Shown piece after piece: positions 9,564 to 52,861 of a DNA stretch of 64,000 nt. Within the stretch, counting starts at the first letter, position 1; each line of letters opens with the position of its first letter. The position numbers and the translations under genes are program-made. Origin of the DNA: an uncultured virus (IMG/VR IMGVR_UViG_3300005573_001079) (Duplodnaviria; Heunggongvirae; Uroviricota; Caudoviricetes); IMG/VR virus record IMGVR_UViG_3300005573_001079, positions 62,001 to 126,000 of that record; one strand, given 5' to 3'. Under the pieces are notes generated by a model, which had not been told where the DNA came from, did no database searches, and saw only the letters and a list, made by a program, of their open reading frames with translations.

Positions 9564-9780
9564 CTTCCTTTAACATAAGTTTTTTTAATAAAAAATCAAC
9601 TTCTTCTTTCATATTTATTATACATAAAGACTTGCAAGTAGGACATACATCTTGTATTGTGTCATCTACAACTTGATACTCATCAGACTGAAACTCCGCT
9701 CCACATTCTTTACAATAAAAAACTAAATTTAAAGAATGTGATAAAATTTTTACGTTATTCTGTTTTAAAATTACTTTCAT
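9538..9780 (-). CDS. Zinc-ribbon protein
   Basis: CKEC...CPTC. Confidence 0.55.
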   Translation of the reverse strand: MKVILKQNNVKILSHSLNLVFYCKECGAEFQSDEYQVVDDTIQDVCPTCKSLCIINMKEEVDFLLKKLMLKEDENKALFY

Positions 9781-10385
9781 AAGTTCCTCTCAAAAGTAGA
9801 CTTTGACTTTGGAGTTTCATAAAAATCTATCTTACTAACTTTAACTCCAGAGTCTTTTAATAAAGGTTTTAACATTTCTGTTACTATATCAAATACCCAC
9901 TTCGACAAATTTTCTGAAGTTGGTACAAAGTCTAAAATAGTTAATCCTTTCCATTTATCTAATAAACATAAATAAAAAGAATCTTCTTCTGCTTTAGACT
10001 TAATCATTTCTAAAATCGTTTGCTTTATTACATAATAACCCTCTCCTTTTGATTCTAAATAATCATAAACAGAACTGTCAAAAATTCCTAAAAGATTTTT
10101 TAACATTTCAAGTTCAGCTTTGAATAGAGGATCTTGTAAATGAAAAAGAAACTTATGATCAAGATAATCATTTACCCACTTTTTAAATATATTAAGATTA
10201 TTAAAGTCCGTTAACATTCCGTCTTCTCCTAAATTACTACCTTTCAAACTAACAACTATCTTACCTCTATGTCCATGTAAATGTCTACAAGCATTTGTAG
10301 ATGTTAGACTAAAATCTTTATTCAAATCTTGTGTCCACACTCTGTGGCCGTAATCAAATTCAAATTCTTTAGAAATTTCATACAT
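9777..10385 (-). CDS. queD: 6-carboxy-5,6,7,8-tetrahydropterin synthase
   Basis: KEFEFDYGHR, CRHLHGH, DFNNL, LDHKFL, PTSENL, YETP; carries an internal insertion. Confidence 0.9.
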   Translation of the reverse strand: MYEISKEFEFDYGHRVWTQDLNKDFSLTSTNACRHLHGHRGKIVVSLKGSNLGEDGMLTDFNNLNIFKKWVNDYLDHKFLFHLQDPLFKAELEMLKNLLGIFDSSVYDYLESKGEGYYVIKQTILEMIKSKAEEDSFYLCLLDKWKGLTILDFVPTSENLSKWVFDIVTEMLKPLLKDSGVKVSKIDFYETPKSKSTFERNL

Positions 10386-13775: not shown

Positions 13776-14309
13776 TTATCTTCCAGAACTCCCAAATCCT
13801 TTAGTACTCCGTGCAGAATTGGAAAGTTTCTTTTTATGAAAAAAGATAACAGTAGGAACTCTAAAGAACTCTATTTGAGCAATTTTATCTCCTTTCTTAA
13901 CGGTAAAAGGATATTTGCCATGATTATATATAATTACGGTAAGTTCCTCTCTATAGTCATTATCAATTATACCTAAATGATTTCTCAAACCTTTTCTAAA
14001 AGCTAACCCTGAGCGTGTGTGAATTTTATATGCAACATTACCAAAAGGAGTGATTGTTAATGATAAGAAAGGAATATAAAAATGAAACGCAGGTGCAATC
14101 TTAATTCCTAATCTCACTTGTCTCCATTGTTCAGTTGGAATTGTTACACTTTCAACAGAATAAACATCCCAACACGCAGCTCTTCCATAAGACTTCGTTG
14201 GTTTCTTTGCTAAAGGATCTACTTTTTGAAAAAAAACAATTATAGGCCCTAAGTATCTTAAATATATCCATATTCCAAATATTACAAGTATTAAAGTAAA
14301 CATAAACAC
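13776..14309 (-). CDS. dut: Trimeric dUTPase with hydrophobic N-terminal extension
   Basis: Five motifs: AACWDV, RSGLA, GIIDNDYR, KIAQ, RSTKGFGSSG. Confidence 0.9.
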   Translation of the reverse strand: MFMFTLILVIFGIWIYLRYLGPIIVFFQKVDPLAKKPTKSYGRAACWDVYSVESVTIPTEQWRQVRLGIKIAPAFHFYIPFLSLTITPFGNVAYKIHTRSGLAFRKGLRNHLGIIDNDYREELTVIIYNHGKYPFTVKKGDKIAQIEFFRVPTVIFFHKKKLSNSARSTKGFGSSGR

Positions 14310-19899: not shown

Positions 19900-21537
19900 T
19901 CAAGATTGCGCTGACTGAGTAAAAAGTCTATCAATATAATCTTTCTCTTCGTCTGATAAAGATATAATACCTTTAGTAGTCAAAAACATACCCGCAACAG
20001 AAACTGCGTTTTCTAAAGAAAGTCTTGTTACTTTTACAGGATCAATCACTCCTATTTCAAATAAATCCCCAAAAGTATTATTCAAAACATCATACCCAAA
20101 ATTTATATTTTTAGAGTCTAAAACTTCTTTTAAAATCGCATCTCCTTTTAATCCTGCATTCTCACATATACTTAGAAAAGGAATCTCTAAAGAATTATAC
20201 AAAATATTTATCCCTATTTTTTGATCCTCAATGCTTCCTTTAACAAACTTTACGTCACTTAAATCTTTCAAAACTTCTCTTGCTCTTAACAAAGCTACCC
20301 CGCCTCCTGCGACAATACCTTCTTCTAATGCCGCGGACGTTGCATGTAATGCATCTTCTATCCGCATTTTCTTTTCTTTTAATTCAGTTTCTGTAAATGC
20401 ACCTACTCTTAATACAACAATGCCTCCTGTTAACTTACCTAATCTCTCTCTTAATTTTTGTTTATCATATTCTATTTCCGTGTTATTAATTTGTGTCTTT
20501 ATTTGTTCAATAGTTTCTTGAATCTTTTTTGGATCTCCTTTTCCTCCGAAAATAATAGTTCTATCTTTACTAACAACAACTTTTTCTGCTTTCCCTAAAA
20601 TAGAAGTAGTAGCTTGAGTTATAGGAACAACATCTCCAAACACAGTCCCTCCAGTAAAAACAGCGATATCATTAAGCAAGTCTGTTCTTCTGTCTCCATA
20701 TCCAGGAGATAATACTGCACAACAATTCAAAACCCCTTTAACACTATTCAACAATAATAATTTGAGTATGTCATCACTAAAATCATTTGCAATTACTAAT
20801 AAAGAAGAATTTCCTTTATGATACACCTCTTCCATTATTTGTTTTAAGTACATATTATTAAGAATATCATTATATATCAATATATAACAATTTTTTAATT
20901 CTACTTCCATACTATCTTTTTTATTAATAAATCCTATTGATTTATATCCTCGATCAAACTGCATTCCCTCCGCAACATCTATGATAGTTTGAGGTCCTTT
21001 ACTCTCTTCTACAATTACAACTCCATCTTCTCCCGCTTTTTCAATAGCATCTGTAATAATTTCTCCTATCTCATAATCATTGTTTGCGGATATACTAGCA
21101 ACATTAATTAAGTCTTCTCTACTTTCTATTTTTCGAGAAATTTCTTGCAAACGACTCACTACCATCTTTACTCCAATATCCATACCTCTTTTCAAATCTA
21201 TAGGATTCGCACCAGCTACTATATTCTTAATACCATAAGTAATCAAAGAATGGGACAATACTGTTGCGGTTGTAGTTCCATCTCCTGCTATTTCATTAGT
21301 TTTTAATGCAGCTTCTTTAACGATCTGAGCTCCTAAATTTTCAATTCCATCTTTAACAAACACTTCTTTTGCAACAGTAACCCCATCTTTAGTAATCAAG
21401 GGAGATAATCCGGGTCTTTCTATAATTACATTATTGCCTTTAGGTCCTAAAGTACATTTTACAATATTTGCTAAATAATCTACACCTTTTTTCAACTTAA
21501 TTAGAGCATCTTCATAAACAATATTTCTTTGTTTCAT
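19900..21537 (-). CDS. groEL: Chaperonin GroEL (phage-encoded)
   Basis: TLGPKG, TKDGVTVAKE, GDGTTTATV, EGMQFDRGY, EEGIVAGGG, GVIDP; no GGM tail. Confidence 0.97.
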   Translation of the reverse strand: MKQRNIVYEDALIKLKKGVDYLANIVKCTLGPKGNNVIIERPGLSPLITKDGVTVAKEVFVKDGIENLGAQIVKEAALKTNEIAGDGTTTATVLSHSLITYGIKNIVAGANPIDLKRGMDIGVKMVVSRLQEISRKIESREDLINVASISANNDYEIGEIITDAIEKAGEDGVVIVEESKGPQTIIDVAEGMQFDRGYKSIGFINKKDSMEVELKNCYILIYNDILNNMYLKQIMEEVYHKGNSSLLVIANDFSDDILKLLLLNSVKGVLNCCAVLSPGYGDRRTDLLNDIAVFTGGTVFGDVVPITQATTSILGKAEKVVVSKDRTIIFGGKGDPKKIQETIEQIKTQINNTEIEYDKQKLRERLGKLTGGIVVLRVGAFTETELKEKKMRIEDALHATSAALEEGIVAGGGVALLRAREVLKDLSDVKFVKGSIEDQKIGINILYNSLEIPFLSICENAGLKGDAILKEVLDSKNINFGYDVLNNTFGDLFEIGVIDPVKVTRLSLENAVSVAGMFLTTKGIISLSDEEKDYIDRLFTQSAQS

Positions 21538-21579
21538 AACAAAGATTTCTCCTTAATTTATTAAAAACTAAACAAACTA

Positions 21580-22089
21580 TTATTTTTTGTTTCTCATTTC
21601 TTTAGATAATTCTTCTAAAAGAATTTTAGAAAAAGCAATAATCTCTTTAGCTGCATCTCTTCTAATAGAATCTCCTCCTTTAGCTAATTGAGAAGGATGA
21701 AAATGAGAAACATAAGTAGCATAAAAAGACCCAGCAGTATTAAAAATAAACTCTTTAAGCTCCTCAATGGATAAAGAAAAACTGCTCGAGGACGGAACCT
21801 CTATCTTACTTTCAAATTCAGTTGTTGTAGTATTAGAAAATTGATTTTTATACTCTTCCATTTCTTCTACATCTTCATCATCATCGTCTAAATAATTATC
21901 TACATCATCTTCATCTATAACTTCATCATCTATAACTTCATCATCTAAATAAATATCATCTAAATCTGAGTTAGTTGCTTTGGCTTTTTCCTCTAAAAAA
22001 GCATCATTTTTTAACTCTGTCTGAGAAGGCTTAACATCTTTCTGTAAAATGTTCTTCCTTTCTCCTACTGTTATTTTTCCCATAGTCAT
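21580..22089 (-). CDS. Acidic hypothetical protein
   Basis: D/E-rich tract; 15-bp tandem repeat at 21911-21947 (DDEVI). Confidence 0.6.
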   Translation of the reverse strand: MTMGKITVGERKNILQKDVKPSQTELKNDAFLEEKAKATNSDLDDIYLDDEVIDDEVIDEDDVDNYLDDDDEDVEEMEEYKNQFSNTTTTEFESKIEVPSSSSFSLSIEELKEFIFNTAGSFYATYVSHFHPSQLAKGGDSIRRDAAKEIIAFSKILLEELSKEMRNKK

Positions 22090-22117
22090 TCTCCTTTAAT
22101 TTATTAATAAAAATAAG

Positions 22118-24721
22118 TTATTTATGAAATTCAAACTTTTCTCTTAACATTTCTCTAATAATGCTCCAATCTTTAGTTAAATCTACCTCAACTAAAGACC
22201 CCCAAGATTTTCCTATTTTAATTTCTGGAGATAAAGGAACAATTAAATCAGAAACTTCGGGATTCAACATTTTATTATACAAAAGTTTAGAAACGAATTC
22301 TAATTCATCATCTGGAACATTAAATACTAAAGAATCATATACAGTTAAGACAAGTCTTGATCTCAAGCTTCTTTTTCTTATCTCTCTAAATACTTTTACG
22401 CAAGACAAAAATGTTAAATCAGAAGCAGCACTCTGTATAGGGCTATTTATTGATTGTCTTTCTGCTTCTGCTCTTAGACCTTGATTCGAACTATTTATAT
22501 TTAAAAGTCTCCTCCTTCTTCCAAATAAATTAACAACATATCCATCTCTCTTTGCTAAAGCGGTGGTTACTGCAAGCCATTTCTTTGCTACTTTATATCG
22601 ATTAAAAAAAGTATCAATAATACGTTGAGCTAATGAAGGAGAAACTCCTAATTGTTCTGATACACTCTTCGCACCTCTCCCATACATTATTCCAAATATT
22701 ATCAACTTCGTATCTTGTCTTTCTGCTTTTGTAACATCTTTCGTAATTTCTAAAAATTCTTCGTATGAAATATCTCTATTAGGTATAGGCACTTTTTTAT
22801 AAGCAGCAGCTGCCATTAATTTATGAATATCTATTCCATTTTGTAAATCTCTTAAAGCTTGTGGATCTTTACTGTAATTAATCCATATTCTAAATTCTGC
22901 TTGACCTTGGTCTACTTCTACTAACCAATCTGACGTTCCATCCTCATAACGATCCGCACAAAAAATATCTTTAATATCCTCTGCAGTTCCAGTACGCGGA
23001 ATGTTATTTAAATTAGGATTTCTAGAACTCGGTCTACCAGTAACTGTCCCAAACAATAAATAATCTGTATGAACTTTATCTCCTACTAATCTTTTCTTAA
23101 TACCATCAAGAAAAGTACTTTTAAGATGAGACAAAGTACGATATTTTGCTAAGTATTCGCAAAACTTATTAGCTTTAGAATACTCTAATAATACTTCGTC
23201 ATCTAAACTAGGATTATTCTTAACAGTAGTTTTTATTATAGGTAACTTCATCTTCTCTATAAGAAGTTCTTTTAATTGTTTAGGAGAATTAATGTTAAAA
23301 ACAAATCTTGTTTCCTCTTTCTTAAACTCTAAATAATCTTCAAAATTAGGAAATCTTTTTTGTAAAAAAGCAGAACTTTCCCATTTTTCATATAGTTCTT
23401 TTATTTTTTCATTAGTCTTTTCTAATTCAAATTGTTTTACCTGAGGTACTTCATAAATTTTTTGTAAATACTCTTCCATTTTCTTTTCATACTTCTCAAT
23501 AGTTTTATTTAAATAATCAATATCTATACTAACCCCGCAAAATTCAGTTTGAATCAAAATTCTCTGCATAGGCATCATTATCTCAAACAATACAAAATCA
23601 AGTTTTTGTTCATATATCTCAGGTAACATTTTGTTATAAGATCTTAAAGTACAATCAACATCTTTAAGAGCATATAGATACAAAATTTCTCCTGGAATAT
23701 CAGAATAATTAGATATTTTATTTTGTAACTTATATTGATTAAGAGGAATATCATATCTTCCTAAATCTGTGTACTTTTCTGAAAGAACTTCCAAACCATG
23801 TGGACTATTTTCATCGAGTAAGTGATCCATCAAAATAGTATCACAATAATAATTATTAACTATAATACCTCGAGATAAAAGAAATTCAATATCAAAAGAT
23901 CCATTATGTGCAATCTTTTTAGAATTATTTTCAAAAACTTCTTTCAACTTATCAAAAATATAATCTTTATCTATTTTTTGTGTTAAAATTCTTAAATCAA
24001 TTAGTACTCCGGTATTCTCCATCCAAGAAAATGTAAGTATAAAAATCTCATCTTTCATAAAATCTAAACCAGTGGTCTCAATATCGAAAGCCCACAAATC
24101 ATTTTCGTGTAATTGAGAAACTAACCAATCAAATTGTGCTAAATTCGTAACAACTTTATAATCAACAGGAGATTCATTTTCTATTTTAATTTTACCTTGC
24201 AAAAAATCTTTTACAGTTCTTAAATCATTAGTAAATTTAGTTCTTTCTTGAGGATTTCTAAGTATATAAGCAGGATGAAATAATGGGATAATCTTACAAT
24301 TATATTCTTCACAATCAAATATCTTACCATGTACTCTTGTTATACCCCCTACTCCTTTTAAAAACTTTTTAAGAGGAGTATTACCTAAAGTAACAATAAC
24401 TTTTGGTTTTAAACTTAAAATATCTTGTTCTAAAAATTCAAAACAGCTTTCAACCTCTTTCGGTAATGGAACTCTATTATCTGGAGGTCTACATGCACAA
24501 ATATTTCCTATAGAAACTTTCTCTCTATCAATACCTACCTCTCTTAAGCACGCATTTAATAAATTTCCAGCATCTCCTACAAAAGGAATGCCTTTCTTGT
24601 CTTCTTCTACTCCAGGAGCTTCTCCTATAAAGAATATCTCCGAACCTTCAACAATTACTGAAGGAACTACTTGTGTCCTATTTTTATATAATTCACATTT
24701 TTGACAATTCAAATCATACAT
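22118..24721 (-). CDS. polA: Family A DNA polymerase with N-terminal family-4 uracil-DNA glycosylase domain and 3'-5' exonuclease
   Basis: UDG: CQKC, GEAPG, CRPPDNR, HPAY. Exo: DIETTG, HNGSFD. Pol: TGRPSS, DQGQAEFR, KLIIFGIMYG, NSPIQS, VYDS. Confidence 0.93.
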   Translation of the reverse strand: MYDLNCQKCELYKNRTQVVPSVIVEGSEIFFIGEAPGVEEDKKGIPFVGDAGNLLNACLREVGIDREKVSIGNICACRPPDNRVPLPKEVESCFEFLEQDILSLKPKVIVTLGNTPLKKFLKGVGGITRVHGKIFDCEEYNCKIIPLFHPAYILRNPQERTKFTNDLRTVKDFLQGKIKIENESPVDYKVVTNLAQFDWLVSQLHENDLWAFDIETTGLDFMKDEIFILTFSWMENTGVLIDLRILTQKIDKDYIFDKLKEVFENNSKKIAHNGSFDIEFLLSRGIIVNNYYCDTILMDHLLDENSPHGLEVLSEKYTDLGRYDIPLNQYKLQNKISNYSDIPGEILYLYALKDVDCTLRSYNKMLPEIYEQKLDFVLFEIMMPMQRILIQTEFCGVSIDIDYLNKTIEKYEKKMEEYLQKIYEVPQVKQFELEKTNEKIKELYEKWESSAFLQKRFPNFEDYLEFKKEETRFVFNINSPKQLKELLIEKMKLPIIKTTVKNNPSLDDEVLLEYSKANKFCEYLAKYRTLSHLKSTFLDGIKKRLVGDKVHTDYLLFGTVTGRPSSRNPNLNNIPRTGTAEDIKDIFCADRYEDGTSDWLVEVDQGQAEFRIWINYSKDPQALRDLQNGIDIHKLMAAAAYKKVPIPNRDISYEEFLEITKDVTKAERQDTKLIIFGIMYGRGAKSVSEQLGVSPSLAQRIIDTFFNRYKVAKKWLAVTTALAKRDGYVVNLFGRRRRLLNINSSNQGLRAEAERQSINSPIQSAASDLTFLSCVKVFREIRKRSLRSRLVLTVYDSLVFNVPDDELEFVSKLLYNKMLNPEVSDLIVPLSPEIKIGKSWGSLVEVDLTKDWSIIREMLREKFEFHK

Positions 24722-24726
24722 AACTT

Positions 24727-25542
24727 TTATTTAACCCAACTTAAAATTTTTTCAATATTATAAACTATACAATTATATTGTTCTGTGTTTAAAACAGTAG
24801 AATCAGAAAAGTTTACTTTTTCTAAAATCTTTTCGCAAGGAAGACCTCTATCAGTATACTTAATACAATGCTTACCATGAATATATGCAGAAGAAGAATC
24901 ATTAGAATGAATCCAATAATAAGAATCTCCTTTATATCTTTGTAACTCTACAGCATCGCTTAGTCCCATTAAATGTGTTGGTTTAACAATCTTTTGTGAA
25001 GATGCTCTTATATATCTATTTATACGATCTACTAAATACCACCTGTTTAAAACTCTTTTTAAAGTTTGACTCTTTATATTATCAGATACTCCTTCAATCT
25101 CAAAATCAAGAGAAAAAGGAAGTCCAATATAAGATATTTTAGAATGGTTGTTCCAAAAGAAAAAAGACCCTATAATTTCATCTACATTTTTTCCTTGAGC
25201 CATTGCTAATATTGGAATATTACAATTTCTAGATGAATGTAATTCAATAAAGTCTAACACCATCTTTTTCGTTTCTGCTGCGTCTTCCCATGCTTCTGGG
25301 GCAACTACTACAGAAACTTGTAAATCTTCTGCAATATCCAATAAAGCATTTGCATCAAAACTTGTTCCTAATTCAAAAATAGAATTATCTAAAATGACAA
25401 AATCTTTTTCACGTATACGCTTTCTATAAAATTCATAATATTTTGAATCCGACTGTAACACATGTGGTAAAATAAGATGGTACTTAGATTTTGTTGCAAA
25501 ATCTTCTAAATAAGAAGTTGGACAAATAATACAATGCTGCAT
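24727..25542 (-). CDS. Divergent TGT/DpdA-like 7-deazaguanine transglycosylase
   Basis: VILDNSIFE (cf. LDSGAF), AMAQG, HLMG, SNDSS: TGT-barrel motifs in the expected order; in the que operon. Confidence 0.65.
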   Translation of the reverse strand: MQHCIICPTSYLEDFATKSKYHLILPHVLQSDSKYYEFYRKRIREKDFVILDNSIFELGTSFDANALLDIAEDLQVSVVVAPEAWEDAAETKKMVLDFIELHSSRNCNIPILAMAQGKNVDEIIGSFFFWNNHSKISYIGLPFSLDFEIEGVSDNIKSQTLKRVLNRWYLVDRINRYIRASSQKIVKPTHLMGLSDAVELQRYKGDSYYWIHSNDSSSAYIHGKHCIKYTDRGLPCEKILEKVNFSDSTVLNTEQYNCIVYNIEKILSWVK

Positions 25543-25557
25543 TTTTCCTCCTGTAGT

Positions 25558-25908
25558 TTAATTATCTCTCTTTAAAGATTCTAAATACTTAGATAGTTTA
25601 TTACTTTCTATATCCATAGAATTTTTAACAAATTTTATTTCTATTATTAAAGATCGTACTAAATTTTTTATAAAAGAAGGGAAAAGAGAAAGTAAAAACA
25701 AAAATCTTACAAACGTAACAAATCCTTGTTTTTCCATCTCAAACATTTGTCTTTCTTTTAAATTCATAACATATATTTCAAGATCCTTTCTTTTTTTATC
25801 CTTTTCTTTTAGATAAGAATTATACCAACGTTGAGAATTCAATAGGAAAGTCATAAATAAAAAGAGAATTAATATAATAATTAATTGTTCCATACAAACA
25901 CCTCGCAA
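25558..25908 (-). CDS. Small membrane protein
   Basis: Two hydrophobic segments. Confidence 0.5.
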   Translation of the reverse strand: MRGVCMEQLIIILILFLFMTFLLNSQRWYNSYLKEKDKKRKDLEIYVMNLKERQMFEMEKQGFVTFVRFLFLLSLFPSFIKNLVRSLIIEIKFVKNSMDIESNKLSKYLESLKRDN

Positions 25909-26543
25909 TCTTTAAATTCTATAATATTTTTAGAAATTTCTGAAACTTTATTTTTAATATACAAAGTAGAAAAAAAATAAACATTTCCATACTCGTCTTC
26001 CCCTCTATACAATATCTTGTTTTTCATAAATGCATATAAAGAAGAATTAAAGCAATCTAAACAAATACAAGCGGCTTCTCCGTCAATAACAGAAAGAACA
26101 TCCTTGATAGCGTCTTTTTGTTTTATCTTTTGAGATAAAAACAAATGTAAAAGTCTTACAATCAATTCAGTATCAACCTGTGTATCTTGATAAATATTAT
26201 ATTTTTCTTCGAATAATTTCTTTTGCTTCTCATAATTATACAAAACCCCATTATGTACTAAAGAAAGATTATCAAATGTTATAGGTTGATTATTAGAAAA
26301 ATCAAGACCGAAAATTGCATAACGATTTTGACCAATAATTTTATCTCCTTTCTCTAAAGCCAAATCAAAAGATATATCCCTTGCTCGTATAGGCCACTTA
26401 TAAGTATAAAACTTTTTATTTCTAAGCAAGGTCAATCCAGTTCCATCTTGACCTCTGATATCTGAAGCTTTAAGTAATTTAAAATAAACTTCTGTAGCAA
26501 AAGAAGGATTATTATTAACTATACATCCTGTTATTCCACACAT
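25881..26543 (-). CDS. Class II (Ntn) glutamine amidotransferase, stand-alone
   Basis: Start placed at MCGITG (Cys2 nucleophile); RGQDGTG, NRYA, QP, HNG, DTE. Confidence 0.85.
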   Translation of the reverse strand: MCGITGCIVNNNPSFATEVYFKLLKASDIRGQDGTGLTLLRNKKFYTYKWPIRARDISFDLALEKGDKIIGQNRYAIFGLDFSNNQPITFDNLSLVHNGVLYNYEKQKKLFEEKYNIYQDTQVDTELIVRLLHLFLSQKIKQKDAIKDVLSVIDGEAACICLDCFNSSLYAFMKNKILYRGEDEYGNVYFFSTLYIKNKVSEISKNIIEFKDCEVFVWNN

Positions 26544-27142
26544 ATATCTACACACTCCAATTCTAAATTTTCAATACTGTTAAATACATCTACATTAGGA
26601 CCAGAAAAAAGATAAACACCTTGTTTTAATCCTTTAGTAACTAAATCTTTAATTAAACATACTTCAAAATCCTTTGGTTTCTGTGTCCTTGACAAAGATA
26701 CTTCTTTAAACCACCCTATATCTATATAACAATTTCTAAGAGATGAACGAAGAGGTTTTTCTTTCTTATTAGAAAAAACTAATAATTGTTCAGTACAATT
26801 TCTATATGTATTGCCTAATCCATAATGTAATTTTTTATGAGGAGTTTCTTTTACCCAAGTTATAATAGTTTTATAAACATAGTTATTAAAATTTGTCTTA
26901 AAAACTTCTTCTATCATTGAATTAGTACACCACAAAAATAAATATTTTGTATTTAAAAGACTAAATAAGGTATTTAACCCTTGAACATTATCCCATCTTG
27001 AATAAGTGAGATTATTAGAAATAGCAGGATTTTCTTTATCTTTATAATCCCAAGGAGGATCCACAATAGCAAAATCTTTTTCCGTAGCAGTTTTTAAATA
27101 GTCAACATAATCACTTTTAATTTTTATTACCATTACTCTCAC
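26531..27142 (-). CDS. MT-A70 family N6-adenine (amino) methyltransferase
   Basis: VDPPW, LFLWCT, ITWVK, GLG..YRNCTEQLL, QKP. Confidence 0.85.
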   Translation of the reverse strand: MRVMVIKIKSDYVDYLKTATEKDFAIVDPPWDYKDKENPAISNNLTYSRWDNVQGLNTLFSLLNTKYLFLWCTNSMIEEVFKTNFNNYVYKTIITWVKETPHKKLHYGLGNTYRNCTEQLLVFSNKKEKPLRSSLRNCYIDIGWFKEVSLSRTQKPKDFEVCLIKDLVTKGLKQGVYLFSGPNVDVFNSIENLELECVDICVE

Positions 27143-27190
27143 ACTTTTTTTTTGTTAAACAACTTCTTTTATTAAAAAATCATTCCTATT

Positions 27191-27907
27191 TTAAATACTT
27201 TTGTTTTGCTCCCATTTTTCTAAAACTTCTTTCCATTTATCTTCATTAACTAATGGATCTCTTACACCTGCTTCTATAAACCCTTTTATTCTCAACTTAC
27301 AAGTATCACATTCTAAGCATGGTTCTTCTTCTCCTTTATAACAGCTCCAAGTATATTCATAAGGCACTTTCAAAATATTTCCTATCTCAATAATTTCAGA
27401 CTTATATAAGTGAAGTAAAGGAGTTCTTAATTTTATAGTTCCTCCAGTTGTAGTTTTTTTAGTAGCATTATTTATTAAATTTTGCCACGCTTGTATATAC
27501 TCTGGTCGAGTATCTGGATATCCGCTTGCATCTACTGCAGTAACTCCAGTAAATATAGCATCCGCGTCTATTTCTTCTGCATATTGTAATGCATAAGCAA
27601 TAAATAATGTATTTCTAGCGGGAACATAAGTAACTGGAATTTCTTTACAAATTTCTTCTAGCGATCTTCCTTGTGGAACTTCAATACTATCAGTTAATGC
27701 ACTTCCTTTTGGAGTTGGTAAGTTTATTATTCGATGTTCTTTTACTCCTGCAATTTCTGCCACCCTCTTAGCACATTCAATTTCCTTAGAATGTCTTTGC
27801 CCATATAAAAAGGTTAGAGCATATAATTCGTGTCCTTCTTTTTTTGCAATAAATAGACACGTACTAGAATCTAACCCTCCGCTAAGTATTACAACCGCTT
27901 TTTTCAT
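27191..27907 (-). CDS. queC: 7-cyano-7-deazaguanine (preQ0) synthase
   Basis: SGGLDS, YGQRH, TYVPARN, GYPDTR, WSCY...C..C..C. Confidence 0.96.
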   Translation of the reverse strand: MKKAVVILSGGLDSSTCLFIAKKEGHELYALTFLYGQRHSKEIECAKRVAEIAGVKEHRIINLPTPKGSALTDSIEVPQGRSLEEICKEIPVTYVPARNTLFIAYALQYAEEIDADAIFTGVTAVDASGYPDTRPEYIQAWQNLINNATKKTTTGGTIKLRTPLLHLYKSEIIEIGNILKVPYEYTWSCYKGEEEPCLECDTCKLRIKGFIEAGVRDPLVNEDKWKEVLEKWEQNKSI

Positions 27908-27935
27908 AAAAACCTCCCTTTTATTAATTTATTAC

Positions 27936-27966
27936 AATAAGAGGAAGACATTGTCCTCCTCTTATT
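27936..27966 (-). promoter_or_regulatory. RNA hairpin upstream of queC (possible attenuator, terminator or processing site)
   Basis: Minus strand AATAAGAGGAGGACA-A-TGTCTTCCTCTTATT; 15-nt arms with one G-U pair. Confidence 0.55.
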
Positions 27967-27985
27967 AAGTTAGGAGAAAAAATAA

Positions 27986-28567
27986 TTATTGAACTTGATT
28001 TTCTTTAATATGACTAATTATTAAATTAACTCTTTCCTTTATATCCGTTGTTTTTACTTCTATAAAAGGAATATTAAAATCTTTTAGTATCTTTCTTATT
28101 TTTTTATCCACTAAAAGTCTTCCTTTTTCTTTTCTTATATCATCTTGTACATAAGGAATAATCGGAGGGAAATAAAACAAAAGTATTTTTATTCCTGGTG
28201 TATTAAACAAATTTTTAATAAACTCAATATTTAAAGACTTTAAAAAAGAAGAACTCTTAATTGATAATGTATAAGCTGTTGTACAAATAGGAGTTCTTTC
28301 TGATAATACAACACAACTTTCACTATTAATTCCTTTCCAAAACAAATTCATTAATTGAGAAGTAATTACAATTTGATTATACTCATTACTTTCTACATCA
28401 ATTTTATCATCAATGACTTTTTTTCTAATAAGATCTCTTACAAACTCACTAATTACAAACGTAGAAATTCTCATAGAATCTAACTCTTTCTTCACTTTTT
28501 TTAAAAGAGTTGTTTTTCCAGTACTATTAGTACCAGTAAATAATACTAACAATTTTTGATTAAACAT
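27986..28567 (-). CDS. P-loop nucleotide kinase/ATPase (NadR/AAA_28-like)
   Basis: GTNSTGKTT, SEFVR, SERTPI, DDIR; start at ATG 28567 with RBS. Confidence 0.75.
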   Translation of the reverse strand: MFNQKLLVLFTGTNSTGKTTLLKKVKKELDSMRISTFVISEFVRDLIRKKVIDDKIDVESNEYNQIVITSQLMNLFWKGINSESCVVLSERTPICTTAYTLSIKSSSFLKSLNIEFIKNLFNTPGIKILLFYFPPIIPYVQDDIRKEKGRLLVDKKIRKILKDFNIPFIEVKTTDIKERVNLIISHIKENQVQ

Positions 28568-28606
28568 ATTTATCCCCTTTTCATTTTTTCTATAAATAAA
28601 ATACAA

Positions 28607-29176
28607 TTATAAAAGAAAATATTGCTTCATTTTGTTATACACACCTATTTTGTTTGGAATATGTGCATCTGTAGAATACAAAAAGTTTAATCTTTCTTTA
28701 ACTTCTTTATAAAAATTAACCAAATGTTTTCTTAAATATCTTTCATTCAATTCAACTAAAACATTTTGTGCTAAACAAAATGAAATAAAGTCTTCAATCA
28801 CAAAATCAGAAAGAGGTATTGTCTCTTTATGAAAAGGATGACCTAAATGATGTACTCTTGTAAGTAATGGATAGATACTCTTTAATACTTCTAAATAATG
28901 TAAAGAATCTTTATAAGTATGTAAAGATAAAATTATTTTATAATTTTTCTCTTCTAATTCTTTAATATCCCGTTCCATTTTATTATAATTTGAATTTGAG
29001 CTTAACTCTATCCCTATATTAATCTTACCTCTAAATTCTTCTAATCCTCTTACAAAATCATTTAACCTCATTTGATTTTTATGTATCACCATAATGCCGT
29101 CTGTTATTACATTATTAATATAATAATCATATTGATTATGATAGCGTGGATCATAATGAAAATGATAGTCTTTCAT
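28607..29176 (-). CDS. PHP-family phosphatase (histidinol-phosphatase-like)
   Basis: DYHFH, GIE, SLH, GHP, ELN, STDAH. Confidence 0.75.
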   Translation of the reverse strand: MKDYHFHYDPRYHNQYDYYINNVITDGIMVIHKNQMRLNDFVRGLEEFRGKINIGIELSSNSNYNKMERDIKELEEKNYKIILSLHTYKDSLHYLEVLKSIYPLLTRVHHLGHPFHKETIPLSDFVIEDFISFCLAQNVLVELNERYLRKHLVNFYKEVKERLNFLYSTDAHIPNKIGVYNKMKQYFLL

Positions 29177-30300
29177 ATTATTTCCTTAATTCTATTACAC
29201 ATCTCTTTTATAACATCAAAAGAAGTAAATAAAGGAGGAGTTAATAATATTCTATTTTTAATTTTTCTTAATAATACACCTTTTTCTAAAAACTCTTTAG
29301 TGCTAAGTCTGTCTAAATAAAAAGAAATTAACATTCCTTTTCTGTTATAATCTTTCATATCAGAAAAAAATTCATCAAATATTTTACCTTTACATTCTAT
29401 ATAATCATAAATACTTTTATAAGATGATATGTTTTCTAATATATGAAGAGCAGCACGCGCTGCAATCAAATTAAATGCAAAAGTACTACTATAAAATCCT
29501 CTTTTCAAAGAGAAATTATCAAATAAATTAGATTTATAAAAAACTCCATAAAGAGGAAGACCTCCTCCTATACTTTTTCCAAAAACAATAACGTCAGGAT
29601 CTATTCCAAAATATCCTTGATATGAAAAAACATTTCCCGTTCTCCAAAATCCTGATTGTACTTCATCTACAATTAATAATATATCCATAGATTTAGCAAC
29701 ATCAAACAACTTCTTAAAAACATCTTGCTTTAAGAAAACTCCTCCTGAATTTGCAATCGCACAAGGTTCTACAATAATAGCAGCAACATCCCCTCGAAAA
29801 AGACTTAAAAAATGTTCAAAATTTTCAAAAGAAAAATCTTTGTTGTGAATAGAATCATATAATATTATACTTGAATCATAAAAAGTGTGTTGCAAAATAA
29901 CTTCTCTTCTTCCTGAAAGAGAACCAAATTTTCCATGGTATTGACCATCAAACATTATTACATATTTTTTTTGAGTATATAACTTTGCAAAATGAATAGC
30001 ACTAATAACAGAATCGGTACCACTCGCGGTATAAGATATAAAATAATTATTCGATACAAGATCCTCTAACTTTGAGGTCAGCATCTTTCTCAATTCACTA
30101 TTAAACTCATAAGCAGTTGGAAGTGCATTATACTGTTCTCCTATTACTTTAGATAAAGTAGGGATCCACAAAGAAGTAGAACATGAAAAAGAATGTGCGT
30201 CAAAGTATTCTTTGTTATTAATATCTAATAATACTCCAGGTTCTTTATATTTCTTAAAAACAATATCAAAATCATATATATAACTACTTGTTATTTCCAT
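29173..30300 (-). CDS. Class III PLP-dependent aminotransferase
   Basis: SGTDS, YHG, IIVEP, IVDEVQSGFWRTG, FGKSIGGGLP, STF. Confidence 0.9.
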   Translation of the reverse strand: MEITSSYIYDFDIVFKKYKEPGVLLDINNKEYFDAHSFSCSTSLWIPTLSKVIGEQYNALPTAYEFNSELRKMLTSKLEDLVSNNYFISYTASGTDSVISAIHFAKLYTQKKYVIMFDGQYHGKFGSLSGRREVILQHTFYDSSIILYDSIHNKDFSFENFEHFLSLFRGDVAAIIVEPCAIANSGGVFLKQDVFKKLFDVAKSMDILLIVDEVQSGFWRTGNVFSYQGYFGIDPDVIVFGKSIGGGLPLYGVFYKSNLFDNFSLKRGFYSSTFAFNLIAARAALHILENISSYKSIYDYIECKGKIFDEFFSDMKDYNRKGMLISFYLDRLSTKEFLEKGVLLRKIKNRILLTPPLFTSFDVIKEMCNRIKEII

Positions 30301-31157
30301 TATTTATTCCCTCCATATAACATTTCATAAATTTCTTCCTTAGTTTTTCCCTCTGCCATAAGTTGTTTCTTCAATTCTTTTATTTCTTTTTGTCTTTTTC
30401 TTATAGCATCCTTTACTTGTTCTGGTGTCCAAGATTTTCTTGCATCTACATGAACTCCTTTACTTAACTTAGATAAAACATCATTTAATTCCCCTAAAGT
30501 TTCACTATTAAGTAATTGAAAAACATTCATTTTCATTAAATTATCCTTAATTTTCTCAAAAGTAATCTCACTTGGTATTTCTATTAAAGGCTTATTCAAC
30601 TGATCACAAGCATACTTAAGAGCTTTTTTACCTTTACTCGTAACTCTAAATACTCCGATTACATACTTATAATCAAACTTTTCTAAAAACTTTTTTACTC
30701 TATCCCCGATTACTTGATAAAAAACTTTTTTTATTTCTTCTGGAGTTCTATGATTATCATCCCACGCATAATGAGCAAAAGGATAATACTTTTCATATTG
30801 GGTTGGTATAACTCCAATAGAAGAAATGGTTACTAAATCATAAATATCATCATAAGGTTTAGTAGCGCCAATTATCTTTTTATAAGTATGAGTCGTAGAA
30901 TAAGGTTTTTTTGCAGTACAATTTGTAAAAAGAACTATATCGTGAAGAGGTTTAAAATTATCTAAAACAAATTGAAAAGCCCTTTCAGGATGTGGATGAT
31001 AAAAATGTTCTTTTACTGGATGCAATAAAGGAGAATCCGGACCCAAATCCCATTCATTTGGTGGAATAATTTCTTTTTCATCCCCTACTAAAGAAGTAGT
31101 AACATTACGGGATTTGGAAATAGAATTATAAAAATTCCTAGAATTAAAAAGATTCAT
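30300..31157 (-). CDS. ArcS-like (DUF5591) archaeosine-synthase core domain protein
   Basis: FTNCTAKKPYS (cf. ArcS PCSxxKPYS), SSIGVIP..YE..YPFAHY.W. Confidence 0.75.
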   Translation of the reverse strand: MNLFNSRNFYNSISKSRNVTTSLVGDEKEIIPPNEWDLGPDSPLLHPVKEHFYHPHPERAFQFVLDNFKPLHDIVLFTNCTAKKPYSTTHTYKKIIGATKPYDDIYDLVTISSIGVIPTQYEKYYPFAHYAWDDNHRTPEEIKKVFYQVIGDRVKKFLEKFDYKYVIGVFRVTSKGKKALKYACDQLNKPLIEIPSEITFEKIKDNLMKMNVFQLLNSETLGELNDVLSKLSKGVHVDARKSWTPEQVKDAIRKRQKEIKELKKQLMAEGKTKEEIYEMLYGGNK

Positions 31158-31192
31158 TTTTTTTTACCCTATTACTTATTATTTATATACAA

Positions 31193-31203
31193 ATATAATA
31201 CAA
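31193..31203 (-). promoter_or_regulatory. Putative phage promoter motif TTGTATTATAT
   Basis: Exact copy, 36 nt upstream of the ArcS-like gene. Confidence 0.45.
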
Positions 31204-31213
31204 AATCAACTAA

Positions 31214-31855: not shown

Positions 31856-31957
31856 TTTTTTCTCCTAACTTTTAAAAAAATGTTAACTAAAATATAATAA
31901 ACAAAATGAAATAATCCAAATCTTTTTTTTATTTTTTTTTTATTTTTTTTTAAATTG

Positions 31958-32884: not shown

Positions 32885-32898
32885 ATCACTTCTCCTTT

Positions 32899-33390: not shown

Positions 33391-33404
33391 ACATTTTTTT
33401 TGCT

Positions 33405-37696: not shown

Positions 37697-38446
37697 CTAA
37701 ACTCCTCTTTTATTGTCATAAGCAACAATGTGAATTCTATCAGTATAATTATATCCTTTTTTAATACAATACTCTATTAAAGGAACTCTAATCTTATCTA
37801 ATTCCTCTCTCGTAGCTCCTGCAGGCATCAAATATACCTTACAGTTTGGAATTTTTAGTTGTTTTACCATTTCTTCAATTTCTTCAATATCCTTCTCAAA
37901 GTTAGATACTACTGGCTTAAATTGATAATCATAATAAGAAATAAGTTGTAACATAATATCATAATTATTCCTTAATGATTTATGACGAGTAACCCAAGCT
38001 TGAGGAACTTTGATAACTTTATCTCCTGCTTTGTAAAGACCTCCAACTTTAGGAGTAGTACTTGATAATTTAGGAGATAAAGAAATAAAATCTGCTTTTG
38101 TTTTTACAAAAGCAATACCGGCTGTCTCTATAGTAACAAAATGACCAAAATCTTTCGCAATATTTACCAACCTATTTAACAAAGTTGGATTTGAAGTAGG
38201 TTCTCCTCCTGTTATCATAGTATGCTTTATATGAGAATTTTTTTTATAAAAGTTTATAAGTGTACTCTCTACAACACGAAAAGGTTCAGGAGCCCAACTA
38301 GTATACCAGCTATCACAAATAGAACTTCCAAAAACACATCTCATAGGACATCCTACCATACGAACTAAAATATGAGGGACTCCTGTATATTTTCCTTCTC
38401 CTTGAATACATGTGTAAAACTCTGATATTCCTATTTCTTTTTCCAT
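37697..38446 (-). CDS. queE: 7-carboxy-7-deazaguanine synthase (radical SAM)
   Basis: IQGEG, R..GCPMRC......CDS, TGGEP, IETAG, SPK, RIH. Confidence 0.92.
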   Translation of the reverse strand: MEKEIGISEFYTCIQGEGKYTGVPHILVRMVGCPMRCVFGSSICDSWYTSWAPEPFRVVESTLINFYKKNSHIKHTMITGGEPTSNPTLLNRLVNIAKDFGHFVTIETAGIAFVKTKADFISLSPKLSSTTPKVGGLYKAGDKVIKVPQAWVTRHKSLRNNYDIMLQLISYYDYQFKPVVSNFEKDIEEIEEMVKQLKIPNCKVYLMPAGATREELDKIRVPLIEYCIKKGYNYTDRIHIVAYDNKRGV

Positions 38447-47317: not shown

Positions 47318-47342
47318 AAACCTTTCTATATAATCTAAAATA

Positions 47343-47777: not shown

Positions 47778-47789
47778 ATAAATTATTCC

Positions 47790-49310: not shown

Positions 49311-49316
49311 TCCCTT

Positions 49317-50500: not shown

Positions 50501-50551
50501 AAAGCCTCCACAAAATTTCTTATTTTTTTCTTAAAAAAAAATGTTTTATCA

Positions 50552-52453: not shown

Positions 52454-52495
52454 TTCCTAAGTCTCCTTTTTAACATATTCGAAATTACGAATTCC

Positions 52496-52530: not shown

Positions 52531-52580
52531 TGGCGTTTATTATAATAATAATATTAATATTAATAAATAATTATATGTGT

Positions 52581-52814: not shown

Positions 52815-52861
52815 GTTTTCTTACAAAAAATAAAATCAAAGAACAAATTTATATTTAAAGT

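What the first reader, a model, noticed from the sequence alone, without database searches (positions are those of the whole stretch)
24727..25542. Divergent TGT-fold enzyme 5 nt upstream of the polymerase: possible pre-replicative route
Seen: LDNSIFE, QG, HLMG and SNDSS match the TGT/DpdA motif order, but the protein is short (271 aa), has DNS for DSG and shows no obvious C-terminal Zn site. It abuts polA, and the operon contains a nucleotide-kinase-like gene. Inference: it may exchange the base at nucleotide level, with kinase and polymerase incorporating the modified dNTP, rather than acting on DNA like canonical DpdA.
Basis: partly seen in the sequence, partly recalled or inferred. Interest (0 to 1): 0.7.

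Follow-up and report, generated by a model that had tools for sequence, protein, structure and literature searches.

The report
Phage DpdA3 deazaguanine base-exchange enzyme
A gene in an uncultured large phage encodes a stripped-down relative of the enzymes that swap guanine for 7-deazaguanine; the family (DpdA3) is already named, but whether it works on finished DNA or on free nucleotides has never been tested.

Summary

DNA-acting phage DpdA1 also lacks a conserved Cys cluster and also sits beside polymerase genes. The third cue generalises. A nucleotide kinase (AAA_28, AAA_18 or T4 gp1 type) and/or a dNTP-pyrophosphatase-like gene lies within 3 kb of DpdA3 in 69 of 109 loci (10 of 18 clades), against 0 of 23 DpdA1 loci.

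I lean to a nucleotide-pool, pre-replicative route (about 0.5) over DNA-level exchange (about 0.4). Only an assay can decide.

The parts
24727..25542 (-). DpdA3-subfamily TGT-fold 7-deazaguanine transglycosylase, 271 aa. Predicted general acid/base D52, nucleophile D215, base-recognition residues E83 and Q116-G117, and the HLMG 190-193 motif.
   Evidence: ORF. Model pLDDT 97.7. Foldseek and VIA-align match TGT/DpdA only. BLASTP to the DpdA3 of immuto, CP220 and phiST. hhalign to the DpdA3 clade, probability 100%. hhalign to DpdA1, probability 94.9%. Column counts.
22118..24721 (-). DNA polymerase, 867 aa: UDG-superfamily domain (26-167), 3'-5' exonuclease (188-369) and family A polymerase (474-841). 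It starts 5 nt after the DpdA3 stop.
   Evidence: Pfam. Junction sequence.
25558..25908 (-). 116-aa ORF (TTG start) with a hydrophobic N-terminal stretch; no family. It overlaps the 3' end of the GATase ORF.
   Evidence: no Pfam or PHROG hit.
25881..26555 (-). Stand-alone class-II (Ntn) glutamine amidotransferase. The real start is probably the internal MCGI. Together with QueC it forms a split version of Gat-QueC.
   Evidence: Pfam GATase_6/7; NCBIfam GlmS/PurF N-domain; translation.
26531..27142 (-). MT-A70-family (DPPW motif) methyltransferase.
   Evidence: Pfam MT-A70 4.9e-11; PHROG 359 DNA methyltransferase.
27191..27907 (-). QueC (7-cyano-7-deazaguanine synthase).
   Evidence: Pfam QueC 5.9e-71; TIGR00364 above its cut-off.
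27986..28606 (-). P-loop nucleoside/nucleotide-kinase-like protein (AAA_28), 206 aa. It is homologous to the kinases found next to DpdA3 in other phages.
   Evidence: Pfam AAA_28 2.5e-16; PHROG 2107 'thymidylate kinase'. Model pLDDT 91; Foldseek top hits are thymidylate kinases, deoxynucleoside kinases and the NadR RNK domain. BLASTP to locus kinases.
28607..29176 (-). PHP/HisJ-family phosphoesterase-like protein, 189 aa (weak match).
   Evidence: NCBIfam TIGR01856 7.5e-6, below its cut-off; no Pfam hit.
29173..30300 (-). Class-III (PLP) aminotransferase.
   Evidence: Pfam Aminotran_3 1.3e-44.
30300..31157 (-). Stand-alone DUF5591 domain, the ArcS core ('ArcS2'-like).
   Evidence: Pfam DUF5591 2e-12; NCBIfam archaeosine synthase alpha 2.5e-12, below its cut-off. 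ArcS2 is defined in PMC10516641.
31958..32884 (-). GTP cyclohydrolase FolE2.
   Evidence: Pfam GCHY-1 3.9e-72; NF010200 above its cut-off.
9777..10385 (-). QueD-like 6-pyruvoyl-tetrahydropterin synthase family protein.
   Evidence: Pfam PTPS 6.4e-29.
37697..38446 (-). Probable QueE (radical SAM).
   Evidence: Pfam Radical_SAM 9.9e-7, exactly at its cut-off. phmmer finds it in 80 DpdA3 loci.
13776..14309 (-). dUTPase/dCTP-deaminase-superfamily protein. It is the only dNTP-pyrophosphatase-like gene found in the 129-kb record.
   Evidence: Pfam dUTPase 4.3e-20 and DCD 2e-5. Rest of the record.

Best explanation
What it is (about 0.9). The ORF encodes a DpdA3-subfamily transglycosylase. It is a bare (beta/alpha)8 TGT barrel that forms the N-glycosidic bond between 2'-deoxyribose and a 7-deazaguanine base. 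The base is made by the phage's own FolE2-QueD-QueE-QueC pathway, here probably elaborated further by the GATase, the ArcS2-like protein and the aminotransferase.

Chemistry (inferred from homology). A double displacement: D215 attacks C1' and expels guanine, with D52 as general acid/base. [quoted passage not shown]

Where it acts (my commitment, about 0.5; inferred from gene neighbourhoods only). It acts on the deoxyguanosine nucleotide pool, not on finished DNA. A dNTP pyrophosphatase turns dGTP into dGMP. DpdA3 swaps the base on dGMP, or possibly on dG or dGTP. The neighbouring nucleotide kinase re-phosphorylates the product. The phage's own polymerase then incorporates it. This would explain the complete replacement of G reported for DpdA3 phages.

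Shown here: the gene, its fold, its family, the conserved catalytic residues, the pathway genes and the neighbourhood statistics. Not shown: any enzymatic activity, the substrate, or the base carried by this phage's DNA. The confidence given (0.5) is for the whole statement including the nucleotide-pool route.
For: Identity.
- BLASTP to DpdA3 of immuto 25% (6e-21), CP220 25% (5e-16) and phiST 25% (1e-12).
- hhalign of the window clade against the immuto/CP220-type clade: probability 100%, E 4e-45, 262 columns.
- hhalign against DpdA1: 94.9%, E 4.6e-8, pairing D52/D72, E83/D114, Q116/H141, H190/H196 and D215/D215.
- The roles of the two Asp are taken from the bDpdA mutants D95A and D256A (PMC10164549, passages).

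Nucleotide level.
1. Literature (PMC10516641, passages): DpdA3 phages replace 100% of G, against 32% or less for the other subfamilies. DpdA3 could not be made to work in the E. coli DNA-modification model. [quoted passage not shown]
2. A small kinase lies within 3 kb of DpdA3, on the same strand, in 65 of 109 loci and 9 of 18 clades at 50% identity, plus the window itself.
3. The kinase is directly adjacent in CP220, phiST, BSTP12, Youna2, L099 and L112.
4. The kinases belong to at least three families in the same position: AAA_28 in the window, CP220 and immuto; AAA_18 in phiST; T4 gp1-type DNMK in Aeromonas Ahp1 and Vibrio D479. This points to the function, not the lineage.
5. The window kinase model matches thymidylate kinases, deoxynucleoside kinases and the NadR ribosylnicotinamide kinase domain, not motor ATPases.
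6. dNTP-pyrophosphatase-like genes accompany DpdA3: MazG/PRA-PH in phiST and in 27 of 79 immuto-like loci, HD in CP220, and DCD/dUTPase-like directly downstream in L095, L097/L112, L102/L105, L069, L012, Ahp1, D479 and RHph_I1_18.
7. Any of these classes lies within 3 kb in 69 of 109 loci and 10 of 18 clades. In the 23 DpdA1 control loci there is no kinase-model hit within 3 kb, no small P-loop ORF within 3 kb, and no MazG-like or dUTPase-like hit within the 8-kb flanks.
Against: - Every characterised member of the superfamily (TGT, arcTGT, bDpdA, DpdA1) works on a polynucleotide. None is known to act on a free nucleotide.
- DpdA3 shares DpdA1's compact, Zn-less architecture and C-terminal invariant Asn, so nothing in the fold demands a different substrate.
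- The authors who defined DpdA3 read it as post-replicative.
- 8 of 18 clades show neither a kinase nor a dNTPase-like gene within 3 kb.
- In this record (129 kb, estimated 74% complete) no MazG or HD dGTPase was found. Only a dUTPase-like gene lies 10 kb away.
- AAA_28 kinases also occur in 89 Streptomyces phage records, next to an FkbM methyltransferase and without DpdA3.
- The DpdA1 control is mostly small siphophages of few lineages, so genome size and lineage are confounded.
- Of 109 DpdA3 loci, 79 belong to one clade, and they are the best 80 of 558 relatives found.
- The kinase could instead recycle released guanine to GTP for base synthesis.
Confidence: 0.5

Rival explanations
1. DNA-level exchange, the published view. 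DpdA3 is a sequence-unspecific DNA guanine transglycosylase. It replaces G in phage DNA after or during replication, perhaps on single-stranded or nascent DNA at the fork. That could also explain why dpdA genes of several subfamilies sit next to polymerase or clamp genes. On this reading the kinase and dNTPase-like neighbours serve general nucleotide supply, or recycle released guanine into GTP for base synthesis.
For: - Homology and shared architecture with DNA-acting DpdA1, and the same catalytic residues.
- bDpdA and DpdA1 are shown to insert preQ0 into DNA (PMC10164549; PMC6884629).
- Hutinet 2023 proposes post-replicative insertion for all subfamilies.
- PolA lies within 3 kb of DpdA3 in 12 of 18 clades, and DpdA1 is likewise next to clamp or polymerase genes.
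- 8 of 18 clades have no kinase or dNTPase-like neighbour.
Against: - It does not explain why kinases of three unrelated families and three kinds of dNTP pyrophosphatase-like genes recur directly beside DpdA3, also in 55-kb and 79-kb phages, yet beside none of 23 DpdA1 loci.
- Replacement is 100% only in this subfamily.
- The attempts to show activity in the E. coli DNA model failed.
Confidence: 0.4
2. Partner-ATPase model. The P-loop neighbour is not a metabolic kinase. It is a functional analogue of bacterial DpdB, an ATPase that DpdA needs in order to work on DNA.
For: bDpdA needs the ATPase DpdB for preQ0 insertion (PMC10164549, abstract and passages). Actinophage DpdA genes sit next to ParB-like genes.
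Against: The window kinase model matches small-molecule nucleoside/nucleotide kinases, not ParB-like or motor ATPases. In Ahp1 and D479 the same position is held by a T4 gp1-type dNMP kinase. This model gives no role to the dNTPase-like genes.
Confidence: 0.05
3. The enzyme modifies tRNA, or merely boosts host queuosine/archaeosine precursors, rather than changing the phage genome. Alternatively, it is catalytically dead.
For: The fold is that of tRNA-guanine transglycosylases. Hutinet 2019 considered Q-precursor boosting for phages without a DpdA.
Against: It lacks the Zn subdomain and the insertions that TGTs use to hold tRNA. It is a homologue of proteins from phages whose DNA is 100% modified. 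The catalytic residues are invariant. It sits in the replication block.
Confidence: 0.03

Closest known systems
DpdA3 (Hutinet et al. 2023, NAR; Cellulophaga phiST CGPG_00065, Campylobacter CP220 gp056, Flavobacterium immuto gp206)
   Same: Homology over nearly the full length to immuto and CP220 and over residues 1-206 to phiST (25% identity; profile-profile probability 100%). Same length class (258-264 aa against 271). Same motifs (LDNS, QG, HLxG, SxDxS). Encoded with FolE/QueD/QueE genes, with a kinase nearby and, in immuto, with PolA and GroEL downstream as in the window.
   Different: It forms a separate clade: about 30 metagenomic relatives at 41-64% identity and only 25% to the named members. 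It has Glu instead of Asp at the base-recognition position (E in 38 of 96 and D in 57 of 96 family members). Its cluster has FolE2, a split GATase plus QueC, an ArcS2-like gene, a class-III aminotransferase, a PHP-like gene and MT-A70. No characterised DpdA3 phage seen here carries that gene set.
DpdA1 (Enterobacteria phage 9g and relatives)
   Same: Compact Zn-less TGT barrel. Catalytic Asp pair, HxxG and SxDSS motifs, and an invariant Asn in the C-terminal helix. The gene sits next to polymerase genes.
   Different: Only remote similarity (hhalign 94.9%, 165 columns). DpdA1 replaces 32% of G or less, in sequence motifs. No kinase or dNTPase-like gene was found beside it in 23 loci.
Bacterial DpdA (Salmonella Montevideo, PDB 7UI4)
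   Different: bDpdA has the 128-residue Ins8 pinned by a CxCx2Cx22H Zn site, plus Ins1, which together form the DNA-binding crescent, and it needs DpdB and ATP. The window protein has only about 56 residues after the nucleophile and no Zn ligands.
tRNA-guanine transglycosylases (bacterial TGT, archaeal arcTGT, eukaryotic QTRT1)
   Same: Fold and catalytic logic. Top Foldseek and VIA-align hits. It has Q-G like TGT at the position where DpdA1 and bDpdA have His.
   Different: No Pfam TGT match. No Zn subdomain, no N-terminal lid, no PUA or C domains.
Pre-replicative base-replacement modules: T4 gp56 dCTPase / gp42 dCMP hydroxymethylase / gp1 dNMP kinase, and the PurZ-MazZ-DatZ-DpoZ module of 2-aminoadenine phages (recalled from general knowledge, not from a call)
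   Same: The same three-part logic appears next to DpdA3: a dNTP pyrophosphatase-like gene, an enzyme that changes the base, and a dNMP kinase, often with the phage's own PolA. In Ahp1 and D479 the kinase is literally the T4 gp1 family.
   Different: The base-changing step would be a TGT-type base swap, not a modification of the existing base or a new purine pathway. Nothing has been shown biochemically.

Membership tests
DpdA3 subfamily | Sequence homology to the founding members (phiST CGPG_00065, CP220 gp056, immuto gp206) | tested here: met
   BLASTP E 1e-12 to 6e-21 (nearly full length for immuto and CP220, residues 1-206 for phiST). hhalign probability 100%, 262 aligned columns.
DpdA3 subfamily | TGT-type TIM barrel | tested here: met
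DpdA3 subfamily | Catalytic Asp pair (general acid/base and nucleophile) conserved | tested here: met
   D52 in 95 of 96 and D215 in 96 of 96. They align to DpdA1 D72 and D215. Roles are taken from bDpdA mutants.
DpdA3 subfamily | Encoded with 7-deazaguanine synthesis genes | tested here: met
   FolE2, QueC, QueD and probable QueE are in the window.
DpdA3 subfamily | Complete replacement of G in virion DNA | not testable with these tools
   This is an uncultured IMG/VR record. It needs LC-MS of virion DNA.
DpdA3 subfamily | Transglycosylase activity and its substrate | not testable with these tools
   Not shown for any DpdA3 either. No later report was found in the library searches.
Canonical TGT (Pfam PF01702) | Match to the family model at its curated threshold | tested here: not met
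   No hit for the window protein at E<=1. 2 of 96 relatives hit weakly, best E 0.11.
Canonical TGT and bacterial DpdA | Structural Zn site (CxCx2C...H) pinning the beta8/alpha8 insertion | tested here: not met
   No conserved Cys in the family. Only about 56 residues follow D215. The site is described.
Bacterial DpdA (Pfam PF23859) | Match to the family model | tested here: not met
   No hit for the window protein. 3 of 96 relatives hit, best E 0.022.
DpdA4 / DUF6610 (PF20314) | Match to DUF6610 | tested here: not met
   No hit for the window protein at E<=1. 12 of 96 relatives hit weakly, best 4.7e-4. The two families are therefore related, but this protein does not fall in DpdA4.
Pre-replicative nucleotide-level replacement module (works-like claim, not a family) | dNTP pyrophosphatase, base-changing enzyme and dNMP kinase encoded together | tested here: inconclusive
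   Kinase 2.4 kb upstream of DpdA3. Only a dUTPase-like gene 10 kb away and a weak PHP-like gene. No MazG or HD in the 129 kb held. The full trio is adjacent in Ahp1, D479, L095 and L112.

The most novel reading that the evidence does not exclude
DpdA3 would be the first TGT-fold enzyme that swaps the base on a free deoxyguanosine nucleotide. With a dedicated nucleotide kinase, a dGTP-removing pyrophosphatase and a UDG-domain-bearing PolA, it would form a portable pre-replicative module that rewrites G completely. [quoted passage not shown] In this phage the extra GATase, ArcS2-like, class-III aminotransferase and PHP genes would add a 7-deazaguanine derivative not yet described.
Probability: 0.35. 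Interest if true: 0.85.

Novelty: new member of a known kind. Interest (0 to 1): 0.55.

Why it matters
DpdA3 goes with the only 7-deazaguanine systems reported to replace every G (CP220, phiST, immuto). No member has been assayed, and the defining paper reports that its attempts failed.

Whether replacement happens in the nucleotide pool or on DNA decides several things:
- how these phages exclude dGTP;
- which polymerases accept the modified dNTPs;
- how such genomes could be made in vitro;
- how the modification interacts with host defences that sense modified G.

The neighbourhood pattern found here (kinases of three families plus MazG, HD or dUTPase-like genes beside DpdA3 but not beside DpdA1) turns a loose idea into a short list of proteins to purify and a clear set of assays.

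The window's cluster also carries enzymes (aminotransferase, ArcS2-like, split GATase, PHP-like) that hint at an undescribed base.

On the sober side, the gene itself belongs to a named family, and the family is large (1720 cluster representatives).

Tried and rejected
- **Net charge and pI as a proxy for DNA binding.** Median pI is 5.4-6.1 for the DpdA3-type alignments and 5.9 for DNA-acting DpdA1. Uninformative.
- **Complex prediction of DpdA3 with the kinase.** No verdict (score 0.01). Not used as evidence either way.
- **The search for related loci with the broad alignment A1.** Replaced by the clade alignments A2-A5.
- **Large-genome DpdA2 control, Vibrio phage nt-1.** Neither Pfam TGT, nor Pfam DpdA, nor profile A1 found a DpdA gene in the record, so this control was dropped. 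The genome-size confound of the DpdA1 control therefore stands.
- **Was the 'methyltransferase' next to the AAA_28 kinase in Streptomyces phage LukeCage a hidden DpdA3?** No: hhalign probability 0.1% and Pfam FkbM methyltransferase.
- **Promoter scan of 21000-34000.** 74 sites against 78 +/- 8 expected: no signal. No minus-strand terminator-like site lies between 22118 and 31645.
- **Pfam scan of the 71 ORFs outside the window plus 8 small window ORFs.** No MazG, HD, thymidylate synthase or second kinase; mostly structural and LRR-like genes.
- **First iterative-HMM script.** Killed by the sandbox and rerun in smaller steps.
- **Crippen et al. 2019 (PMC6854489).** Not held. Its content is known to me only through statements in PMC6884629 and PMC10516641.
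- **The search of earlier findings.** Nothing on this genome.
- **Literature on UDG-PolA fusions.** One unrelated review.
- **Supplementary tables of PMC10516641** (lists of DpdA3 homologues) were not opened. They may already list relatives of this clade.
Full report
**The gene.** The window is a stretch of an uncultured virus record: 128,925 bases, estimated 74% complete, 29% G+C. Nearly all genes lie on the minus strand; ORFs of 60 aa or more cover 96.6% of it. The finding's coordinates, 24727-25542, hold a 271-aa minus-strand ORF with an ATG start and AGGAGG 6 nt upstream of the ATG. Its TAA stop is followed by five bases and then the ATG of an 867-aa polymerase gene.

**Family searches.** Pfam and NCBIfam give no hit. 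PHROGs gives two families of unknown function. The protein is not an orphan. The 90%-identity protein search scored 382 candidates and found 39 proteins at E<=1e-3, about 30 of them at 41-64% identity. An exhaustive HMMER scan finds 1720 cluster representatives at E<=1e-3, 384 at E<=1e-10 and 19 at E<=1e-30. In isolated phages, tblastn finds 33 records, all below 60% identity. They include Campylobacter Firehammerviruses, Cellulophaga phiST-like phages and Flavobacterium immuto phages, where the gene is annotated 'DNA guanine transglycosylase'.

**Which family.** Pairwise BLASTP aligns the protein nearly end to end with two published DpdA3 proteins: immuto gp206 (25%, 6e-21) and CP220 gp056 (25%, 5e-16). 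With phiST CGPG_00065 (25%, 1e-12) the main alignment covers query residues 1-206. A profile of the window's own clade against a profile of the immuto/CP220-type clade gives hhalign probability 100%, E 4e-45, over 262 columns. The whole family against a phage DpdA1 alignment gives 94.9%, E 4.6e-8, over 165 columns. That alignment pairs:
- D52 with DpdA1 D72;
- E83 with D114;
- Q116 with H141;
- H190 with H196;
- D215 with D215.

In bacterial DpdA the equivalent residues are the general acid/base D95, the base-recognition residues D130 and H181, and the nucleophile D256; the D95A and D256A mutants are dead (PMC10164549, passages). In the family alignment, D52 is present in 95 of 96 sequences. 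R167, H190, G193, D215 and N262 are each present in 96 of 96. Position 83 is D in 57 and E in 38. Position 116 is Q in 71 and H in 22. The protein is thus a catalytically intact, divergent member of DpdA3.

**What is published about DpdA3.** I read passages, not the whole text, of PMC10516641. [quoted passage not shown] Its substrate is 'difficult to predict'. Attempts to test DpdA3 in the authors' E. coli model 'were unsuccessful'. [quoted passage not shown] I could not read that Campylobacter paper. Six library searches found no report of a DpdA3 assay or of a nucleotide-level exchange. A 2025 preprint adds one more phage with full 7-deazaguanine substitution but says nothing on the route.

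- *Short, no Zn.* True for the window protein. No Cys is conserved and only about 56 residues follow the nucleophile. bDpdA, by contrast, has a 128-residue insertion pinned by a CxCx2Cx22H Zn site that forms the DNA-binding surface. But my alignment of 11 phage DpdA1 proteins, enzymes known to modify DNA, also has no invariant Cys, and they are about 306 aa long. This cue does not discriminate.
- *Abuts polA.* Also true, and recurrent. A PolA lies within 3 kb of DpdA3 in 29 of 109 loci and 12 of 18 clades. It is directly adjacent in L006, L108-L110, Bacillus phage BSTP12 and Weizmannia phage Youna2. But DpdA1 of 9g, Yong-L2-223 and MS1 is likewise directly upstream of clamp or polymerase genes, and in ART the clamp and polymerase genes lie 3-4 kb downstream. 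This cue does not discriminate either.
- *A kinase in the operon.* This one generalises (next two paragraphs).

**The kinase association: data.** I collected 110 loci with a DpdA3-type gene; 109 yielded a DpdA3 ORF. They comprise 7 loci (the window's own contig left out), 80 (the best 80 of 558 relatives), 4 and 14, plus CP220, phiST, immuto, BSTP12 and Youna2. Three contigs appear twice. I grouped the loci by DpdA3 identity into 18 clades at 50%; one immuto-like clade holds 79 loci.

**The kinase association: result.** An HMM built from the kinases next to DpdA3 hits an ORF within 3 kb, always on the same strand, in 65 of 109 loci and 9 of 18 clades. Among loci with at least 5 kb on both sides the figure is 41 of 62. 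The window itself adds one more clade: its kinase starts 2.4 kb upstream. By Pfam, the window kinase, CP220 gp057 and immuto gp203 are all AAA_28 (2.5e-16, 1.7e-12, 3.3e-13). phiST CGPG_00066 is AAA_18. In Aeromonas phage Ahp1 and Vibrio phage D479, the gene directly after DpdA3 is a T4 gp1-type deoxynucleotide monophosphate kinase (PF21448; 1.7e-17 and 5.7e-9). The window kinase model (pLDDT 91) matches thymidylate kinases, deoxynucleoside kinases and the NadR ribosylnicotinamide-kinase domain (TM up to 0.69).

**dNTP-pyrophosphatase-like genes.** These recur too:
- MazG in phiST, and a PRA-PH/MazG-like gene in immuto and 27 of 79 immuto-like loci;
- HD fused to a kinase in CP220;
- a dCTP-deaminase/dUTPase-superfamily gene directly downstream of DpdA3 in L095, L097/L112, L102/L105, L069, L012, Ahp1, D479 and Rhizobium phage RHph_I1_18.

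**Totals and control.** Any of the three gene classes lies within 3 kb in 69 of 109 loci and 10 of 18 clades; kinase and pyrophosphatase-like genes occur together in 32 loci and 5 clades. In the control of 23 DpdA1 loci (9g, 17 IMG/VR loci, 5 diverse isolates), no kinase-model hit and no small P-loop ORF lies within 3 kb. No MazG-like or dUTPase-like hit lies within the 8-kb flanks; the only dUTPase is 13 kb away in 9g.

**Limits of that comparison.**
- The control is mostly 50-60-kb siphophages of few lineages. My attempt to add a large DpdA2 phage failed.
- The DpdA3 sample is dominated by one clade.
- 8 of 18 clades show none of these neighbours.
- AAA_28 kinases also occur without DpdA3 in 89 Streptomyces phage records.
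- In the present record no MazG or HD was found. There is only a dUTPase-like gene 10 kb away and a weak PHP-like gene next to the kinase.
- The kinase might instead recycle released guanine into GTP for base synthesis. It might also be a DpdB-like helper, although its fold argues against that.

**Reading.** A dNTP pyrophosphatase, a base-changing enzyme and a dNMP kinase, often beside the phage's own polymerase, is the layout of known pre-replicative base-replacement systems: T4 hydroxymethylcytosine and the 2-aminoadenine phages (recalled, not from a call). Add the 100% replacement seen only in this subfamily and the failed DNA-modification test. On that basis I put about 0.5 on base exchange in the deoxyguanosine nucleotide pool. 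I put about 0.4 on DNA-level exchange, which has superfamily precedent and the published view behind it. The rest goes to a helper-ATPase or tRNA role. Nothing here is biochemical proof.

**The cluster.** The block from 22118 to about 32884 has no minus-strand terminator-like site up to 31645. In transcription order it holds:
- FolE2;
- an ORF of 213 aa without a family;
- a stand-alone DUF5591 (ArcS2-like) protein;
- a class-III aminotransferase;
- a PHP-like protein;
- the kinase;
- QueC;
- an MT-A70 methyltransferase;
- a class-II GATase;
- a small hydrophobic ORF;
- DpdA3;
- the UDG-exo-PolA polymerase.

QueD and a probable QueE lie elsewhere in the window. The closest contig, L006 (47% DpdA3 identity), keeps FolE2, kinase, QueC, GATase, DpdA3 and PolA, followed by a 544-aa ORF at the position of the window's chaperonin gene. 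It lacks detectable homologues of the PHP-like and MT-A70 genes, and no aminotransferase or ArcS2 homologue shows among its plus-strand ORFs. The base finally carried by this phage cannot be told from sequence. An archaeosine-type or further aminated derivative is a guess.

**Verdict.** The gene is a new, divergent member of a known family.

Noticed in passing
window 22118-24721 (-); also L006, L007-L009, L095-L112, L013, L014: The polymerase next to DpdA3 carries an N-terminal UDG-superfamily domain (Pfam UDG 1.5e-33). phmmer gave 26 domain matches in 21 PolA ORFs of the DpdA3 loci and none in the 23 DpdA1 control loci. Pfam confirms it in L009, L013 and L110, while the immuto PolA lacks it. 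The role of a glycosylase-like domain on the polymerase of G-replacing phages is unexplained.
   Followed up: partly
window 28607-31157 (-) and 25881-27142 (-): The deazaguanine cluster holds genes not seen in the characterised DpdA3 phages examined here: a class-III aminotransferase, a stand-alone DUF5591/ArcS2-like protein, a PHP/HisJ-like phosphoesterase, a GATase separate from QueC, and an MT-A70 methyltransferase. This may point to an undescribed 7-deazaguanine derivative.
   Followed up: partly
L142 (Aeromonas phage Ahp1) 4986-6969; L144 (Vibrio phage D479) 4974-6863: The gene order is DpdA3-like, then a T4 gp1-type dNMP kinase, then a dCTP-deaminase/dUTPase-like gene, all abutting. In the records the DpdA3-like genes are annotated only as hypothetical proteins.
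   Followed up: partly
L143 (Rhizobium phage RHph_I1_18) 5001-6269: A DpdA3-like domain is fused to a C-terminal DUF3310 domain (422 aa), followed by a dUTPase-like gene and clamp and clamp-loader genes. Other long relatives exist: P0162 (586 aa, with the match in its C-terminal half) and P0175 (475 aa, with a NUMOD3 motif).
   Followed up: no
L141 (Streptomyces phage LukeCage) 6210-7621, and 89 Streptomyces phage records: An AAA_28 kinase homologous to the DpdA3-linked kinases overlaps the end of an FkbM-type methyltransferase gene, with a MazG-like gene 5 kb upstream. This may be another nucleotide-level modification module unrelated to deazaguanine.
   Followed up: partly
window 19900-21537 (-) and 21580-22089 (-): A GroEL-like chaperonin gene follows the polymerase, after a 169-aa very acidic ORF. 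The same PolA-then-chaperonin order occurs in phage immuto (PolA, GroES, GroEL). In L006 an unsearched 544-aa ORF holds the same position after a 152-aa ORF.
   Followed up: no
window 42921-55373 (-): A run of sugar-nucleotide and glycosyltransferase genes (NAD-dependent epimerase, GDP-mannose 4,6-dehydratase, GT2 and GT4 families, one 633-aa GT2-GT4 fusion) sits inside the phage. The target is unknown: DNA, virion or host surface.
   Followed up: no
G000:C1:15048-29691 (outside the window): A tandem array of about 20 paralogous minus-strand genes of 150-590 aa has LRR/Receptor-L-like repeats, next to tail genes. It may be a diversified receptor-binding set.
   Followed up: no
window 39180-41879 (-), 41899-42540 (-), 31214-31855 (-): A class II (B12) ribonucleotide reductase with a TSCPD domain, a sigma-70-like factor (regions 2 and 4), and a second weak sigma-like ORF inside the deazaguanine block.
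   Followed up: no
L005 (IMG/VR contig of 133,380 bases): A second public contig carries a 100% identical DpdA3 gene. It is probably the same phage, assembled slightly longer than the record that holds the window.
   Followed up: no
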